48,444 bases of DNA from a virus (IMGVR_UViG_3300045988_154943:1-48444), one strand, 5' to 3'. Positions 28,516-34,723 are shown, numbered from the stretch's first letter. Program-made: numbers and translations. The notes: a model not told the origin generated them from the sequence alone.

Positions 28516-28701
28516 AATATCATCTCCTTTTCACTACAGTAATTTTACGGTTTACCAACCTTGAATTGAGATTTATTTATATCTACATTGATTACGCTCA
28601 ATGTTAAGCACTTATTTGGCACAGGTTCTAGGTTATGCTCCCAGTTCTTTGGTTTTGGAGACCAATGTTTTTCTGATTAAACTAAACCCATAGGTAAGGG
28701 C

Positions 28702-32897: not shown

Positions 32898-33290
32898 ATG
32901 CGAAATACCCCATTAAAAATCGTTATAGAGGTCATTCCAAGAAGCAAAAAGAACTCACAAGAGATAATATTCAATAAAAAAACTGGCAGAAGAATGGTAA
33001 TTCAAAATAAAAGGTACACAGAATTTGAAAAGGACTGTAAATGGTTCATGCCAAAGTTAGAGAAACCAATTGACTACCCAATTAATTTAAGTTGCCATTT
33101 TTATGTAAATGACGCCAGAAGAAGAGATATAGCAAACTACCTAGAAGCCATACAAGATATTTTAGTTAAATACAAAGTAATAGAAGATGACAACTATAAT
33201 ATAATTGCTTCATTAAATAATTGTAAAATGGAAATAGATAGAATTAACCCACGTTGTGAAATTGAAATAACAAAAAAAGAGACTAATTAA
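32898..33290 (+). CDS. rusA: RusA-family Holliday junction resolvase
   Basis: RRRDIANYLEAIQDILVKYKVIEDDNY parallels E. coli RusA RRDLDNLLKAVLDAL...WEDDSQV catalytic Asp/Lys cluster; 130 aa. Confidence 0.85.
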   Translation: MRNTPLKIVIEVIPRSKKNSQEIIFNKKTGRRMVIQNKRYTEFEKDCKWFMPKLEKPIDYPINLSCHFYVNDARRRDIANYLEAIQDILVKYKVIEDDNYNIIASLNNCKMEIDRINPRCEIEITKKETN

Positions 33291-33303
33291 AAGTCTCTTT
33301 TTC
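33272..33303. terminator. bidirectional rho-independent terminator (AGAGACT/AGTCTCT stem, A-run upstream, T-run downstream)
   Basis: aaaaaaAGAGACTaattaaaAGTCTCTttttc; terminates RusA on the plus strand and the candidate large ncRNA on the minus strand. Confidence 0.7.
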
Positions 33304-34300
33304 TTTGAAACAAGGTTTGTTTCTATAAAAAAAATGAAAAACTAGGAGCATAACCAATTGTACACTCCTTGATAAATTGATTTAGGTATTCCTCACACTA
33401 ATAGAACACAACCAAATTTTCTCAGCCAATAGGAAGTAAAAGTCCTCGTAGGGGGCGACCCTATGTCCTCTTTTACTTTTGGATAACTTTTGCCGTGGGG
33501 CAAAATACCTATAGTAAATCTCTCTTACTCGCTTTCACACACGCTAGGAAATTCTATATTATTTGCGTACCTGCAAACCATAATTAGCATTCTGTCATTT
33601 TCGGATGTAGATTTGTGCTACTCGTACCAGTTTCTAGTGTTATACTCCTGTCGCCAGGTATCAACTACACATTGGTTTATTGGTTTTCCTGCCTAGCCTT
33701 TATGCACCATACATAATAGCATATTCGCAGTGTACTCAGTATATGCTTGTACATACCTTTTCCTGATTACCAACCACTAGTCCTGTGCTTTAAATTCTCT
33801 TATGTTCTACTACTATTATCTCTTTCCACACTTTGTGTGTCTCAACAATAATATTACTATTATCGTACACATAATCCCTCAAAAAATCTCTCTTCTAAGT
33901 AATATGAACGAGATAACATCCTTACCACATTGTGTTGTAGTCTTTCATAAGGTTCTAAATCAACTTGTCAAGGAGCATTCCCTACGACCATAGATAGGGA
34001 ATATACTCTATGTTGAATGTTAATTGTAAGTGCTTACGACATTTTAATAAGCACCATAGAATAATAATAAAGTGTGGATTTGCGCCAACATTTTCTATCT
34101 ACTATATCGAATTGCCTCACTATTTGGCTTCTCTATTATTACTCTATGCTACCTATTAGTAGCACATTATTACTTAAATAATGCCCTAATGGACATCATT
34201 GAGACAATGATATGTATAGTAGAAAGAAGAACCATTGTCTCAATGATGTCCATTAGGTGTCAAATAAGAATACTATGTAAGTTATACCCTTTCGAGTACA
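33300..34300 (-). ncRNA. candidate large (~1 kb) structured non-coding RNA
   Basis: No credible ORF on either strand in a gene-dense genome; visibly GC-enriched relative to flanks; many hairpins including GNRA tetraloops (CCTGgcgaCAGG, tactcGAAAgggta), TTTTGCCgtggGGCAAAA, nested AGTAAAAG...CTTTTACT stem, 24-bp perfect inverted repeat; own promoter at 34307-34335 and terminator at 33272-33303. Confidence 0.5.
34186..34256. repeat. 24-25-bp perfect inverted repeat (long hairpin) with 23-nt loop
   Basis: CTAATGGACATCATTGAGACAATG (34186-34209) and its exact reverse complement (34233-34256). Confidence 0.9.
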
Positions 34301-34306
34301 TATTAA

Positions 34307-34335
34307 GTATATCACAATACTTTTTTATTGTCAAT
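34307..34335 (-). promoter_or_regulatory. promoter TTGACA-17-TATACT driving the ORF-free region
   Basis: Minus strand TTGACAataaaaaagtattgtgaTATACT. Confidence 0.45.
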
Positions 34336-34441
34336 ACAATTTATTTCTTTTAATAATTTAATGCAAAACATAATTAGTTCTTCTTTAGTAAAATTTACTT
34401 TTTTATCAAAATTGCCCTCAAAATGTTCTTTAATAAGCATT

Positions 34442-34723
34442 TTATTCAAGATTTCTATTGCAATATCGTTCATAATTTTTACCTTTCTTTATGTATTTTT
34501 TCAAATTAATGGTATCACTACCATTTAGGAACTCCCAAATCACATCTTTTTGCAATTGGGAACAATAACAATTTGCATAAACAAACCATTTGTACATAGT
34601 TTTGCACTCCAATGTCTCATATAGTCGTTTTATACTAAATGCGTCTCTAACAAAATCTTCATAACTAAAGAATTTCATAGTATCTCTTACAAATTTGCAT
34701 TCCATTATCTCTTCTCTCGTCAT
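34442..34723 (-). CDS. hypothetical protein
   Basis: 93-aa ORF, last gene of the 41.0-34.4 kb operon. Confidence 0.45.
   Translation of the reverse strand: MTREEIMECKFVRDTMKFFSYEDFVRDAFSIKRLYETLECKTMYKWFVYANCYCSQLQKDVIWEFLNGSDTINLKKYIKKGKNYERYCNRNLE

What the first reader, a model, noticed from the sequence alone, without database searches (positions are those of the whole stretch)
34186..34256. 24-25-bp perfect inverted repeat with a 23-nt loop
CTAATGGACATCATTGAGACAATG and its exact reverse complement are separated by 23 nt. A perfect arm of this length is far beyond a terminator stem and is unusual in a phage genome. It could be a very stable RNA helix within the candidate large RNA, a DNA cruciform or protein-binding palindrome (a packaging or recombination site would fit its position upstream of terS), or a hairpin recognised on ssDNA.
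Basis: seen in the sequence. Interest (0 to 1): 0.55.

Follow-up and report, generated by a model that had tools for sequence, protein, structure and literature searches.

The report
Leader hairpin of a phage ROOL RNA
The perfect 25-bp inverted repeat is real, but it is best read as an RNA hairpin in the roughly 320-nt leader transcribed ahead of a phage-encoded ROOL RNA; it belongs to a family of conserved phage hairpin modules that matches no Rfam family, and its flawless pairing looks like a recent copying accident specific to this genome.

Summary
The repeat is confirmed: arms 34185-34209 and 34233-34257, 25 nt, 100% complementary, 23-nt spacer. It is by far the longest perfect inverted repeat in the window.

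It lies on the minus (gene) strand, about 40 nt downstream of a strongly conserved promoter and 209 nt upstream of a ROOL RNA (Rfam RF03087, 33976-33367). Fourteen related metagenomic loci carry a hairpin at this position. Pairing is kept through G-U pairs and compensatory changes, and the ROOL-sense strand folds far better than the antisense strand. This points to an RNA structure rather than a DNA site.

Perfection is specific to this window. The closest relative differs inside the element only by four clustered substitutions, each of which turns a mismatch or wobble pair into a Watson-Crick pair. That is the signature of a quasipalindrome template switch.

The hairpin (HP1) has a tandem paralogue (HP2). 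HP2 belongs to a widespread motif with no Rfam match, found in uncultured phages upstream of terS or of the scaffold and capsid genes, always in the sense orientation.

Most likely function (inferred): a processing and stability element of the ROOL precursor, probably an RNase III substrate. The packaging-site, cruciform and operator readings are not supported.

The parts
34185..34257 (-). HP1 stem-loop, the reported inverted repeat. On the minus strand the 5' arm is 34257-34233, the spacer 34232-34210 and the 3' arm 34209-34185. As RNA it forms 27 bp with a 19-nt loop.
34176..34263 (-). Full HP1 module as matched by covariance model R1, which was built from the long-form homologues in relatives.
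   Evidence: 47.6 bits, E about 1e-8; alignment
34247..34251 (-). Cluster of four derived substitutions (34251, 34249, 34248, 34247) that make the 5' arm the exact complement of the 3' arm and abolish the small hairpin A. This is the proposed footprint of the template switch.
   Evidence: these are the only differences from L003 inside the element; all other relatives have AGGTGTC or AGGTATC
34306..34334 (-). Sigma-70-type promoter TTGACA-17-TATACT with an extended -10 TG (11 of 12 matches). The hexamers are invariant in every relative whose sequence reaches this far. The inferred transcription start is near 34299-34301.
34283..34300 (-). H0, a small hairpin at the very 5' end of the predicted transcript. 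It is absent in L007-L010 and L021.
34030..34165 (-). HP2, the tandem paralogue of HP1 and a canonical member of the widespread hairpin-module family. Its apex (about 34130-34070) carries a degraded tRNA-like insert.
   Evidence: (22.7 bits); tRNA-like insert in L003
33977..34002 (-). H3, a conserved 7-bp hairpin that abuts the 5' end of ROOL.
   Evidence: conserved in all 12 sequences; sequence
33367..33976 (-). ROOL RNA (Rfam RF03087), full-length match.
   Evidence: 155.1 bits against a gathering score of 99.1
33272..33304 (-). Intrinsic terminator-like hairpin plus T-run that ends the ROOL unit. It is shared with the convergent RusA gene (32898-33290, + strand). A second terminator-like site lies at 33369-33344.

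Best explanation
WHAT IT IS (shown).
The inverted repeat is an RNA hairpin (HP1) in the roughly 320-nt 5' leader of a stand-alone non-coding transcription unit on the minus strand. The order of the unit is: promoter (34334-34306), small 5' hairpin H0, HP1, HP2, H3, ROOL RNA (33976-33367), terminator (33304-33272).

HP1 and HP2 are tandem paralogues. Both belong to a family of long hairpin modules that can also refold into three adjacent hairpins (A-B-C). HP2-type modules are widespread in uncultured phages, always on the strand of the flanking genes, just upstream of terS or of the scaffold and major-head genes.

WHY IT IS PERFECT (strongly inferred).
The ancestral HP1 was an imperfect quasipalindrome with one A.C mismatch and three G-U pairs in its lower stem. 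In this genome a single replication template switch copied one arm from the other. That changed 4 of 5 adjacent bases and produced the flawless 25-bp repeat.

HOW IT WORKS (inferred, not shown).
ROOL is cut out of a longer precursor. HP1 and HP2 act as structured punctuation of that precursor. A 27-bp uninterrupted duplex is a textbook substrate for host RNase III. Cleavage there would detach the 5' end and leave a monophosphate entry point for 5'-to-3' trimming (RNase J1 type) up to the closed ROOL fold. Any uncleaved hairpins would block exonucleases and keep leader sequence from mispairing with ROOL while it folds. In other phages, tRNAs that abut ROOL play the equivalent role through RNase P and RNase Z.
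For: - Position and transcription unit. ROOL is matched at 33976-33367 on the minus strand. The promoter scores 11 of 12 with an extended -10, and terminators follow ROOL. The promoter hexamers are invariant across relatives while the spacer varies.
- A hairpin is present at the same place in all 14 related loci that reach this position (13 by alignment; L002 is the same contig as L001). Two forms have unrelated distal sequences that both still pair.
- RNA-level, sense-strand signal. In relatives the sense fold is far more stable than the antisense fold, for example -44.7 vs -23.8, -45.1 vs -24.0 and -41.1 vs -20.7 kcal/mol, with 7-9 G-U pairs.
- Covariation in the long form. 99.4% of cells are paired, 6 pairs show changes on both sides, and the slid controls reach at most 53% paired with 0-1 such pairs.
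- Paralogy and family. Model R1 hits window HP1 (47.6 bits), window HP2 (22.7 bits), L016/L017 (37 bits) and L124 (24.5 bits). It gives only one 17-bit hit in 873 kb of unrelated viral DNA.
- HP2 family. In 32 distinct sequences 91.7% of cells are paired, 15 pairs change on both sides, and 94 cells change on both sides against 34.7 +/- 4.8 in shuffles. The module is co-oriented with the flanking genes in 18 of 18 loci, next to terS-terL or to scaffold plus major head genes.
- Template switch. The only differences between window and L003 inside the element are 34251, 34249, 34248 and 34247, and each creates a Watson-Crick pair. Every other relative carries the imperfect arm. The mechanism is described in PMC7202029 and PMC8794818.
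- ROOL is processed from a leader. In L. salivarius the promoter maps 225-450 nt upstream of the RACE-defined mature 5' end (PMC5643018). That leader also holds an imperfect hairpin with 48-nt arms.
- tRNAs abut ROOL in other phages: L035, L086, L146 and L034.
- RNase III's requirement for about two helical turns of dsRNA is established knowledge.
Against: - There are no transcript data. The transcription start, the leader and every cleavage step are inferred.
- HP1 is a local hairpin, not a stem formed by the two flanks of the mature RNA as in rRNA operons. It lies 209 nt from the ROOL 5' end, so it cannot define that end by itself.
- The strongly conserved sequence, the conserved G.G mismatch and the conserved G-U pairs in the lower stem of HP2-type modules suggest recognition by a specific factor. 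RNase III does not require any of these.
- Most HP2-type modules are not next to a ROOL, so the family's function is not specific to ROOL.
- The pMP118 leader hairpin shows no strand asymmetry.
- The host, and therefore its set of RNases, is unknown. The only genome hit is an uncultured Bacilli MAG.
Confidence: 0.55

Rival explanations
1. Specific protein-binding or RNA-polymerase-binding regulatory RNA. The conserved lower stem of the module family (UAUAGGUAGCAUA paired with UAUGGUGCUUAUA, with a G.G mismatch and fixed G-U pairs) would be recognised by a phage or host factor that controls late-operon expression, for example processive antitermination or translational or stability control. HP1 would be a diverged copy.
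For: The lower-stem sequence and its non-Watson-Crick pairs are invariant across many otherwise different phages, while the upper stem covaries freely. Modules sit at the two key late-operon junctions, upstream of terS and upstream of scaffold plus capsid. They are strictly in the sense orientation.
Against: Part of the invariance is imposed by the exact-match pattern used to collect the sequences. The window's HP1 lost exactly this motif: AGGTGTC became GGACATC. There is no sigma-70-like promoter enrichment upstream of the modules, which argues against a promoter-proximal put- or nut-like role. No candidate partner protein was identified.
Confidence: 0.17
2. Generic structural insulator or neutral leader hairpin. 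Leader sequence is simply locked into local hairpins so that it does not interfere with co-transcriptional folding of the ornate ROOL RNA, or the hairpin persists with no specific role. There would be no dedicated cleavage or recognition.
For: The whole leader is a chain of local hairpins: H0, HP1, HP2 and H3. The distal sequence of HP1 can be replaced completely provided it still pairs. H0 is dispensable in some relatives.
Against: HP2-type modules are conserved in sequence and occur mostly without a ROOL. Covariation indicates selection on a particular long helix. A 27-bp duplex would not stay uncleaved in a cell that has RNase III (established knowledge).
Confidence: 0.13
3. DNA-level site: a pac or cos packaging signal, an operator for a dimeric protein, or a cruciform or recombination site upstream of terS.
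For: The repeat lies about 1.4 kb upstream of terS. In this genome it is a perfect palindrome, equally stable on both strands. The -35-like TTGACA at 34263-34258 abuts the repeat.
Against: In relatives the structure is strongly strand-asymmetric, with G-U pairs. The distal half is swapped in L001 although its TerS is 97% identical. The arm sequence itself changed at 4 of 5 adjacent bases. Sister modules lie between minor-head and scaffold genes. Orientation is always sense, 18 of 18. Metagenomic contig ends do not coincide with the element.
Confidence: 0.07
4. Miniature mobile palindromic element, for example a MITE, a Correia-like repeat or an IS200/IS605-derived PATE whose hairpins are read on single-stranded DNA. 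It would have spread among phages and been co-transcribed by accident.
For: Nearly identical arms occur in phages with unrelated terminases and at two different kinds of intergenic site, sometimes in tandem, with a variable apex that accepts inserts. Hairpins A and C are similar small palindromes flanking a core. G-T-tolerant asymmetry could also fit a top-strand ssDNA substrate.
Against: The HP1 arm has no other copy in the window. No target-site duplication is visible (sequence). No transposase was seen among the ORFs scanned near the element. The position is syntenic across the clade. Insertion is always in the sense orientation and always at late-operon junctions.
Confidence: 0.08

Closest known systems
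RNase III processing hairpins (rRNA operon stems; intercistronic sites in phage T7 early and late mRNAs and Bacillus phage SP82 early mRNAs)
   Same: A long, nearly perfect RNA duplex of at least two helical turns, embedded in a polycistronic or precursor transcript next to a stable or highly expressed product. The relatives carry internal mismatches like those in T7 sites. This comparison rests on general knowledge, not on a test done here.
   Different: HP1 is a local hairpin in a leader, not a stem made from both flanks of the mature RNA. Its lower-stem sequence is conserved in the family, which RNase III does not need. Cleavage is untested.
tRNA punctuation of ROOL and GOLLD in phage tRNA islands
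   Same: A structured element immediately flanks the large RNA in the same transcript and could define its ends. tRNAs abut ROOL in L035, L086, L146 and L034. A tRNA-like insert sits inside the HP2 apex in L003. The literature notes that ROOL lies near tRNAs and is possibly co-transcribed with them (PMC5737381, PMC12286853).
   Different: HP1 and HP2 are hairpins, not tRNAs. ARAGORN finds no tRNA in window 33000-34500. A different nuclease would be needed.
Quasipalindrome-associated template-switch mutation (PMC7202029; PMC8794818, 'Template switching in DNA replication can create and maintain RNA hairpins')
   Same: A cluster of substitutions confined to one arm of an imperfect inverted repeat, all converting it into the exact complement of the other arm.
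   Different: The event is inferred from a comparison of metagenomic genomes, not observed. Stepwise compensatory selection cannot be strictly excluded.
Transcribed palindromic repeats (Neisseria Correia elements, REP/BIME, ERIC)
   Same: Intergenic, co-transcribed modules of about 100 nt with inverted-repeat arms that fold into long RNA hairpins and affect mRNA processing or stability. Correia hairpins are RNase III targets. This is a resemblance recalled from general knowledge.
   Different: No multi-copy distribution within the genome, no terminal target duplication, strict sense orientation, and restriction to phage late-operon and ncRNA junctions.
HK022 put RNA and lambda nut/boxB leader elements
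   Same: HP1 is a structured RNA a few tens of nucleotides downstream of a strong promoter, ahead of a long, highly structured transcript.
   Different: There is no sequence or Rfam similarity. The wider module family is not promoter-proximal.

Membership tests
ROOL RNA (Rfam RF03087) | The feature lies inside the region matched by the ROOL covariance model | tested here: not met
   The ROOL match is 33976-33367 and covers model positions 1-574 in full. The hairpin ends at 34185, 209 nt upstream.
Intrinsic (Rho-independent) terminator | A short G+C-rich stem followed directly by a T/U run | tested here: not met
   The terminator scan does not list it on either strand. The stem is A+T-rich and 25-27 bp long, and it is followed by GCAUUAUUUAAG on the minus strand and GUGUCAAAUAAG on the plus strand.
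RNase III substrate | About 20 bp or more of continuous dsRNA within a transcript | tested here: met
   27 uninterrupted base pairs, dG -44 kcal/mol, located downstream of a conserved promoter. That the region is transcribed is itself an inference.
RNase III substrate | Actual RNase III-dependent cleavage | not testable with these tools
   Requires an in vitro cleavage assay or 5'-end mapping in wild-type and rnc-mutant hosts.
Phage pac/cos packaging site | Sequence conserved among phages that share the same small terminase | tested here: not met
   L001 has a TerS 97% identical but a completely different distal stem. The window's own arm differs at 4 of 5 adjacent bases from its nearest relative.
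Phage pac/cos packaging site | Genome termini or the first packaging cut map at the site | not testable with these tools
   No reads are available. The ends of related contigs are scattered and do not coincide with the element, which is only weak evidence.
DNA palindrome: operator or cruciform | Two-fold symmetry maintained on both strands in relatives | tested here: not met
   Antisense folds are 10-21 kcal/mol weaker than sense folds in most relatives, because pairing relies on G-U pairs.
Quasipalindrome template-switch product | Clustered changes in one arm that make it the exact complement of the other, with an imperfect ancestral state | tested here: met
   Four substitutions lie within 5 nt and are the only differences from L003 in the element. 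All the other relatives with sequence here carry the imperfect arm.
HP1/HP2 hairpin-module family (defined here) | Match to covariance model R1, which describes hairpin A, a long covarying stem B and hairpin C, or equivalently an extended hairpin | tested here: met
   Window HP1 scores 47.6 bits and window HP2 22.7 bits. Background is a single 17-bit hit in 873 kb. In window HP1, hairpin A itself is destroyed (3 non-pairs marked in the alignment).
HP1/HP2 hairpin-module family (defined here) | Conserved lower-stem motif (U)AUAGGU(A/G) and sense orientation relative to the flanking genes | tested here: inconclusive
   The orientation criterion is met. The motif is present in relatives' HP1 and in window HP2, but it was overwritten in window HP1: AUAGGUGUC became AUGGACAUC.
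MITE, Correia-like repeat or IS200/IS605 PATE | Multiple copies, target-site duplication, presence/absence polymorphism, linked transposase | tested here: inconclusive
   The window holds a single copy of the arm and no obvious duplication. Related modules do occur at different sites in different phages. No empty-site comparison was made.

The most novel reading that the evidence does not exclude
HP1 and HP2 belong to an undescribed, widespread class of phage RNA elements. The class is a long hairpin with a sequence-conserved lower stem carrying a fixed G.G mismatch and fixed G-U pairs, a freely covarying upper stem, an apex that tolerates inserts (tRNA-like sequences), and an alternative three-hairpin fold. 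These elements punctuate late operons (before terS, before scaffold and capsid genes) and ncRNA islands. They would be recognised by a dedicated phage or host factor. In this phage they would be the maturation signals that release the ROOL nanocage RNA from its precursor.
Probability: 0.3. Interest if true: 0.65.

Novelty: new variant of a known kind. Interest (0 to 1): 0.45.

Why it matters
ROOL is a phage and prophage RNA that assembles into an eight-subunit nanocage. Its function and its biogenesis are both unknown.

This work places a conserved promoter, a roughly 320-nt leader and two conserved hairpin modules in front of a phage ROOL. It links that arrangement to the one published hint that ROOL is cut from a longer precursor. 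Together these give concrete, testable elements for asking how ROOL is made: which nuclease acts, where the ends come from, and whether the leader is needed.

The side finding is that the neighbouring hairpin (HP2) belongs to a sequence-conserved, covarying motif that matches no Rfam family and lies at late-operon junctions of many uncultured gut and rumen phages. That is a candidate new RNA family.

The perfect repeat is also a clean natural example of a template-switch mutation that 'repairs' an RNA stem in a single step.

The perfect palindrome itself is not evidence of a packaging or recombination site.

Tried and rejected
- Close and distant DNA searches of the locus and of a canonical module against 50,697 cultured-phage records found nothing. 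TerL has only hits at or below 26% identity, so the phage and its host stay unidentified.
- Exact scans of IMG/VR for the window's arm and for HP1 flanks found only one related contig. A tight ROOL motif pattern likewise found only that contig.
- The first genome scan found nothing. The second found one MAG.
- Rfam at permissive thresholds gave only sub-threshold microRNA-precursor look-alikes for HP1 and for its long form, meaning 'generic hairpin'.
- Terminator reading: rejected because there is no T-run.
- Coding reading: the + strand ORF 34072-34353 that spans the repeat has no family hit, and relatives differ there by indels that do not preserve the reading frame.
- tRNA reading: ARAGORN finds none in 33000-34500.
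- Loop-to-HP2 complementarity (14 nt, pair I7) is not conserved in L003, so it was treated as chance.
- Promoter association of the wider family: best promoter scores upstream and downstream of the modules are the same, 8.5 against 8.3.
- Assembly artefact (arms collapsed by bubble-popping): considered unlikely. The sequence shared on either side of the 5-nt difference is only 13 nt and 6 nt, shorter than usual assembly k-mers. This is reasoning, not a test.
- Literature full-text search for the motif sequence returned only an unrelated primer.

Full report
OBSERVATION.
The inverted repeat exists as described. The arms are 34185-34209 and 34233-34257, 25 nt each, 100% complementary, with 23 nt between them. 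The arm occurs nowhere else in the window even when three mismatches are allowed. It is the longest perfect inverted repeat in the 48.4 kb: the runner-up is 14 nt, and shuffled copies of the window reach 11-17 nt. As RNA the minus strand forms 27 uninterrupted pairs with a 19-nt loop (dG -44.0 kcal/mol, z = -10.7). The plus strand is almost as stable (-41.9 kcal/mol).

SURROUNDINGS.
Almost all ORFs of 80 aa or more here run on the minus strand. Rfam finds a full-length ROOL RNA (RF03087) at 33976-33367 on the minus strand, at 155 bits against a gathering score of 99. The hairpin therefore lies 209 nt upstream of ROOL on the ROOL strand.

A near-consensus promoter sits at 34334-34306 on the same strand: TTGACA, 17 nt, TATACT, with an extended -10 TG. 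Terminator-like hairpins follow ROOL at 33369-33344 and 33304-33272. A RusA gene converges on that terminator from the other side. A weak TerS-like ORF (32806-32120) and TerL (32118-30340) follow.

The hairpin thus starts about 40 nt into a predicted ncRNA transcription unit of about 1 kb: promoter, H0, HP1 (the finding), HP2, H3, ROOL, terminator.

The + strand ORF that spans the repeat has no family support, and indels in relatives break its reading frame.

RELATIVES.
Cultured-phage databases hold nothing similar. TerS homologues led to related metagenomic contigs, and one more came from a DNA pattern scan. ROOL was confirmed in them.

The leaders were aligned. The promoter hexamers are invariant, and a hairpin is present at the HP1 position in every locus that reaches it.

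Two forms exist:
- A 'long' form of about 105 nt, found in most relatives.
- A 'short' form shared by the window and L003.

In the short form the distal part is replaced by unrelated sequence that still makes a 12-13-bp stem. L001 has a TerS 97% identical to the window's, yet carries the long form.

RNA OR DNA?
In the relatives the element folds much better on the ROOL-sense strand than on the antisense strand. Examples are L007 at -44.7 vs -23.8, L009 at -45.1 vs -24.0 and L012 at -41.1 vs -20.7 kcal/mol. The difference arises because 7-9 of the pairs are G-U.

On eight distinct long-form sequences, 99.4% of pair cells are standard pairs and six pairs change on both sides. When the 3' partners are slid by 1-3 columns, at most 53% of cells pair, with 0-1 double changes.

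This is selection for pairing in the sense-strand RNA.

WHY THE REPEAT IS PERFECT HERE.
Within the element, the window and its closest relative L003 differ only at 34251, 34249, 34248 and 34247. The window has CCTAATGGACATC where L003 and all other relatives have CCTAATAGGTGTC, or AGGTATC in the corresponding stretch.

Each of the four changes converts a non-Watson-Crick contact with the 3' arm (one A.C, three G-U) into a Watson-Crick pair. Together they destroy a small hairpin (GACACCU-AAU-AGGUGUC) that the relatives can form.

Background divergence between the two genomes is about 7% (214 substitutions in about 2,760 aligned columns). By my own rough arithmetic, four specific substitutions within five bases would be expected by chance with a probability of about 1e-4.

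The simplest reading is a single intramolecular template switch at a quasipalindrome. This mechanism is known to homogenise repeat arms and to create perfect RNA stems (PMC7202029, PMC8794818). The perfection that drew attention is therefore a derived, genome-specific state, not the conserved property.

A FAMILY OF MODULES.
The long form folds as three abutting helices, A-B-C, or alternatively as one extended hairpin in which the 3' half of A pairs with the 5' half of C.

A covariance model built from it (R1) gave these results:
- Window HP1: 47.6 bits.
- The next leader hairpin, HP2 (34165-34030): 22.7 bits.
- Two or three modules in L016/L017, which are relatives carrying an HNH gene instead of ROOL: 37 bits.
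- The leader hairpin that abuts ROOL in an unrelated phage, L124: 24.5 bits.
- 873 kb of unrelated viral DNA: a single 17-bit hit.

An exact pattern taken from HP2 retrieved 33 IMG/VR contigs, most of them true modules with strikingly conserved arms and variable apices.

Thirty-two distinct sequences align without gaps. On the extended-hairpin model they show 91.7% pairing and 15 pairs with double changes. Ninety-four cells change on both sides, against 34.7 +/- 4.8 in shuffles, and the slid controls reach at most 50% pairing. A covarying pair between the 'loop' of A and the 'loop' of C is included. The lower stem carries an invariant G.G mismatch and invariant G-U pairs. Part of that invariance is imposed by the search pattern.

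The modules are co-oriented with their flanking genes in 18 of 18 loci. They lie either directly upstream of terS-terL or between the minor head protein and the scaffold plus major-head genes. Only two of these loci contain a ROOL detectable with nhmmer, and there the module follows ROOL. Sigma-70-like promoters are not enriched upstream of the modules.

Neither Rfam, nor the cultured-phage collection, nor a full-text literature search for the motif knows this element. The one genome hit is a gut MAG labelled uncultured Bacilli.

LINK TO ROOL BIOGENESIS.
For the L. salivarius ROOL, reporter fusions placed the promoter 225-450 nt upstream of the mature 5' end defined by circular RACE (PMC5643018). 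The mature RNA must therefore be cut from a leader. The window's predicted leader of about 320 nt fits that range.

The pMP118 leader itself contains an imperfect hairpin with 48-nt arms, 35-150 nt upstream of ROOL.

In other IMG/VR phages, tRNAs abut ROOL on one or both sides. This matches the published remark that ROOL lies near tRNAs and may be co-transcribed with them (PMC5737381, PMC12286853).

In L003 a tRNA-like sequence sits in the HP2 apex (Rfam tRNA at 31.6 bits; ARAGORN calls a tRNA with a four-base anticodon). The window retains only a degraded remnant.

MECHANISM (inferred).
I commit to this reading: HP1 is a processing and stability module of the ROOL precursor.

A 27-bp continuous duplex satisfies the known substrate requirement of RNase III, so if it is transcribed it should be cleaved. 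Cleavage would remove the triphosphate end and open the leader to 5'-exonucleolytic trimming up to the closed ROOL fold. Any uncleaved modules would block exonucleases and keep the leader from mispairing with ROOL.

The position of sister modules between cistrons of late operons, without promoters of their own, fits an intercistronic processing or stability role of the kind known for T7 and SP82 RNase III sites (general knowledge).

What is shown: the position, the conservation of pairing, the strand specificity, the family relationship and the derived nature of the perfect arms.
What is inferred: transcription from the predicted promoter, any cleavage, and the nuclease involved.

RIVALS.
(a) A specific factor-binding regulatory RNA. 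The conserved lower-stem sequence favours it. The window HP1 having lost that motif weakens it as an explanation for this particular copy.
(b) A generic folding insulator.
(c) A DNA site (pac, cos, operator or cruciform). Strand asymmetry, the module swap despite a near-identical TerS, the arm rewrite, the locations between head genes and the strict orientation all argue against it.
(d) A miniature mobile palindromic element, possibly read on single-stranded DNA. It would fit the spread of near-identical arms into different phages and sites. It lacks multi-copy distribution, target duplications and a transposase.

VERDICT.
The packaging and recombination option is not supported.

The flagged feature is a modest curiosity: a leader hairpin made perfect by a template switch. 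Its context is more interesting. It gives a defined ROOL transcription unit with tandem conserved modules, one of which belongs to a widespread phage RNA motif that matches no Rfam family.

Noticed in passing
window 33367-33976 (- strand): Full-length ROOL RNA (RF03087, 155 bits) lies between the early-gene block and terS. It is flanked by a consensus promoter and terminators, so it appears to be a stand-alone ncRNA unit in an uncultured ~29% G+C phage with no close cultured relative.
   Followed up: yes
window 34030-34165 (- strand); loci L148-L181: HP2, the second leader hairpin, belongs to a sequence-conserved, covarying hairpin motif (arms about UAUAGGUAGCAUAGAGUAGAUAUA and UAUAUCUAUUCUAUGGUGCUUAUAA). 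It was found in about 30 IMG/VR contigs upstream of terS or of the scaffold and major-head genes. It gives no Rfam hit, no hit in cultured phages and no hit in the literature text. It is a candidate new RNA family.
   Followed up: partly
L003 634-711; window about 34070-34130 (- strand); L012 and L013 HP2 apex: The apex of HP2 accepts inserts. L003 has a tRNA-like gene there (Rfam tRNA 31.6 bits; ARAGORN 'tRNA-???' with the four-base anticodon taag). The window keeps a degraded remnant. L012 and L013 carry a larger insert containing sequences that look like tRNA fragments by eye (untested).
   Followed up: partly
window 28620-28691 (- strand): A tRNA (43.8 bits; tRNA-Trp CCA in the relatives) sits between the portal gene and the ~194-aa and 383-aa head genes. 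In other phages this same junction holds an HP2-type module.
   Followed up: no
L015 3317-3859; L016 3324-3662; L017 809-1147: More distant relatives (TerS 65-70% identical) have no ROOL in the pre-terS island. They carry a NUMOD4/HNH homing-endonuclease gene among the hairpin modules instead. The island is therefore a mosaic of modules, ROOL, tRNA-like sequences and HNH genes.
   Followed up: partly
L005 5689-8451, L006 2618-5380, L024 and L025 (916-920 aa); L007 and L008 (157 + 437 aa): The large terminase is 592 aa in the window. In some close relatives it is 916-920 aa, and in others it is split into two ORFs. This suggests an intein or an inserted element in terL.
   Followed up: no
L035 5524-6321; L086 4071-4957; L146 5245-5903; L034 6772-7429: In other IMG/VR phages, tRNA genes abut ROOL directly at one or both ends with 0-40 nt gaps. 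This implies that RNase P and RNase Z could define the ROOL ends there.
   Followed up: partly
L027 (pMP118, NC_007930) 2841-2957: The L. salivarius ROOL is preceded by an imperfect inverted repeat with 48-nt arms (dG about -30 kcal/mol, z about -5), 35-150 nt upstream of the RNA. It lies inside the leader implied by published promoter mapping.
   Followed up: partly
L022 521-1647; L023 333-1473: Phages with TerS about 60% identical have a ~1.1-kb stretch with no called gene elsewhere in the genome. It has no ROOL hit but contains a weak (15.9-bit) A-B-C module match. Its content was not characterised.
   Followed up: no
L004, L014, L019, L020 (contig starts): Four independent metagenomic contigs of this clade begin inside ROOL. 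Assemblies may tend to break in this mosaic and structured region.
   Followed up: no
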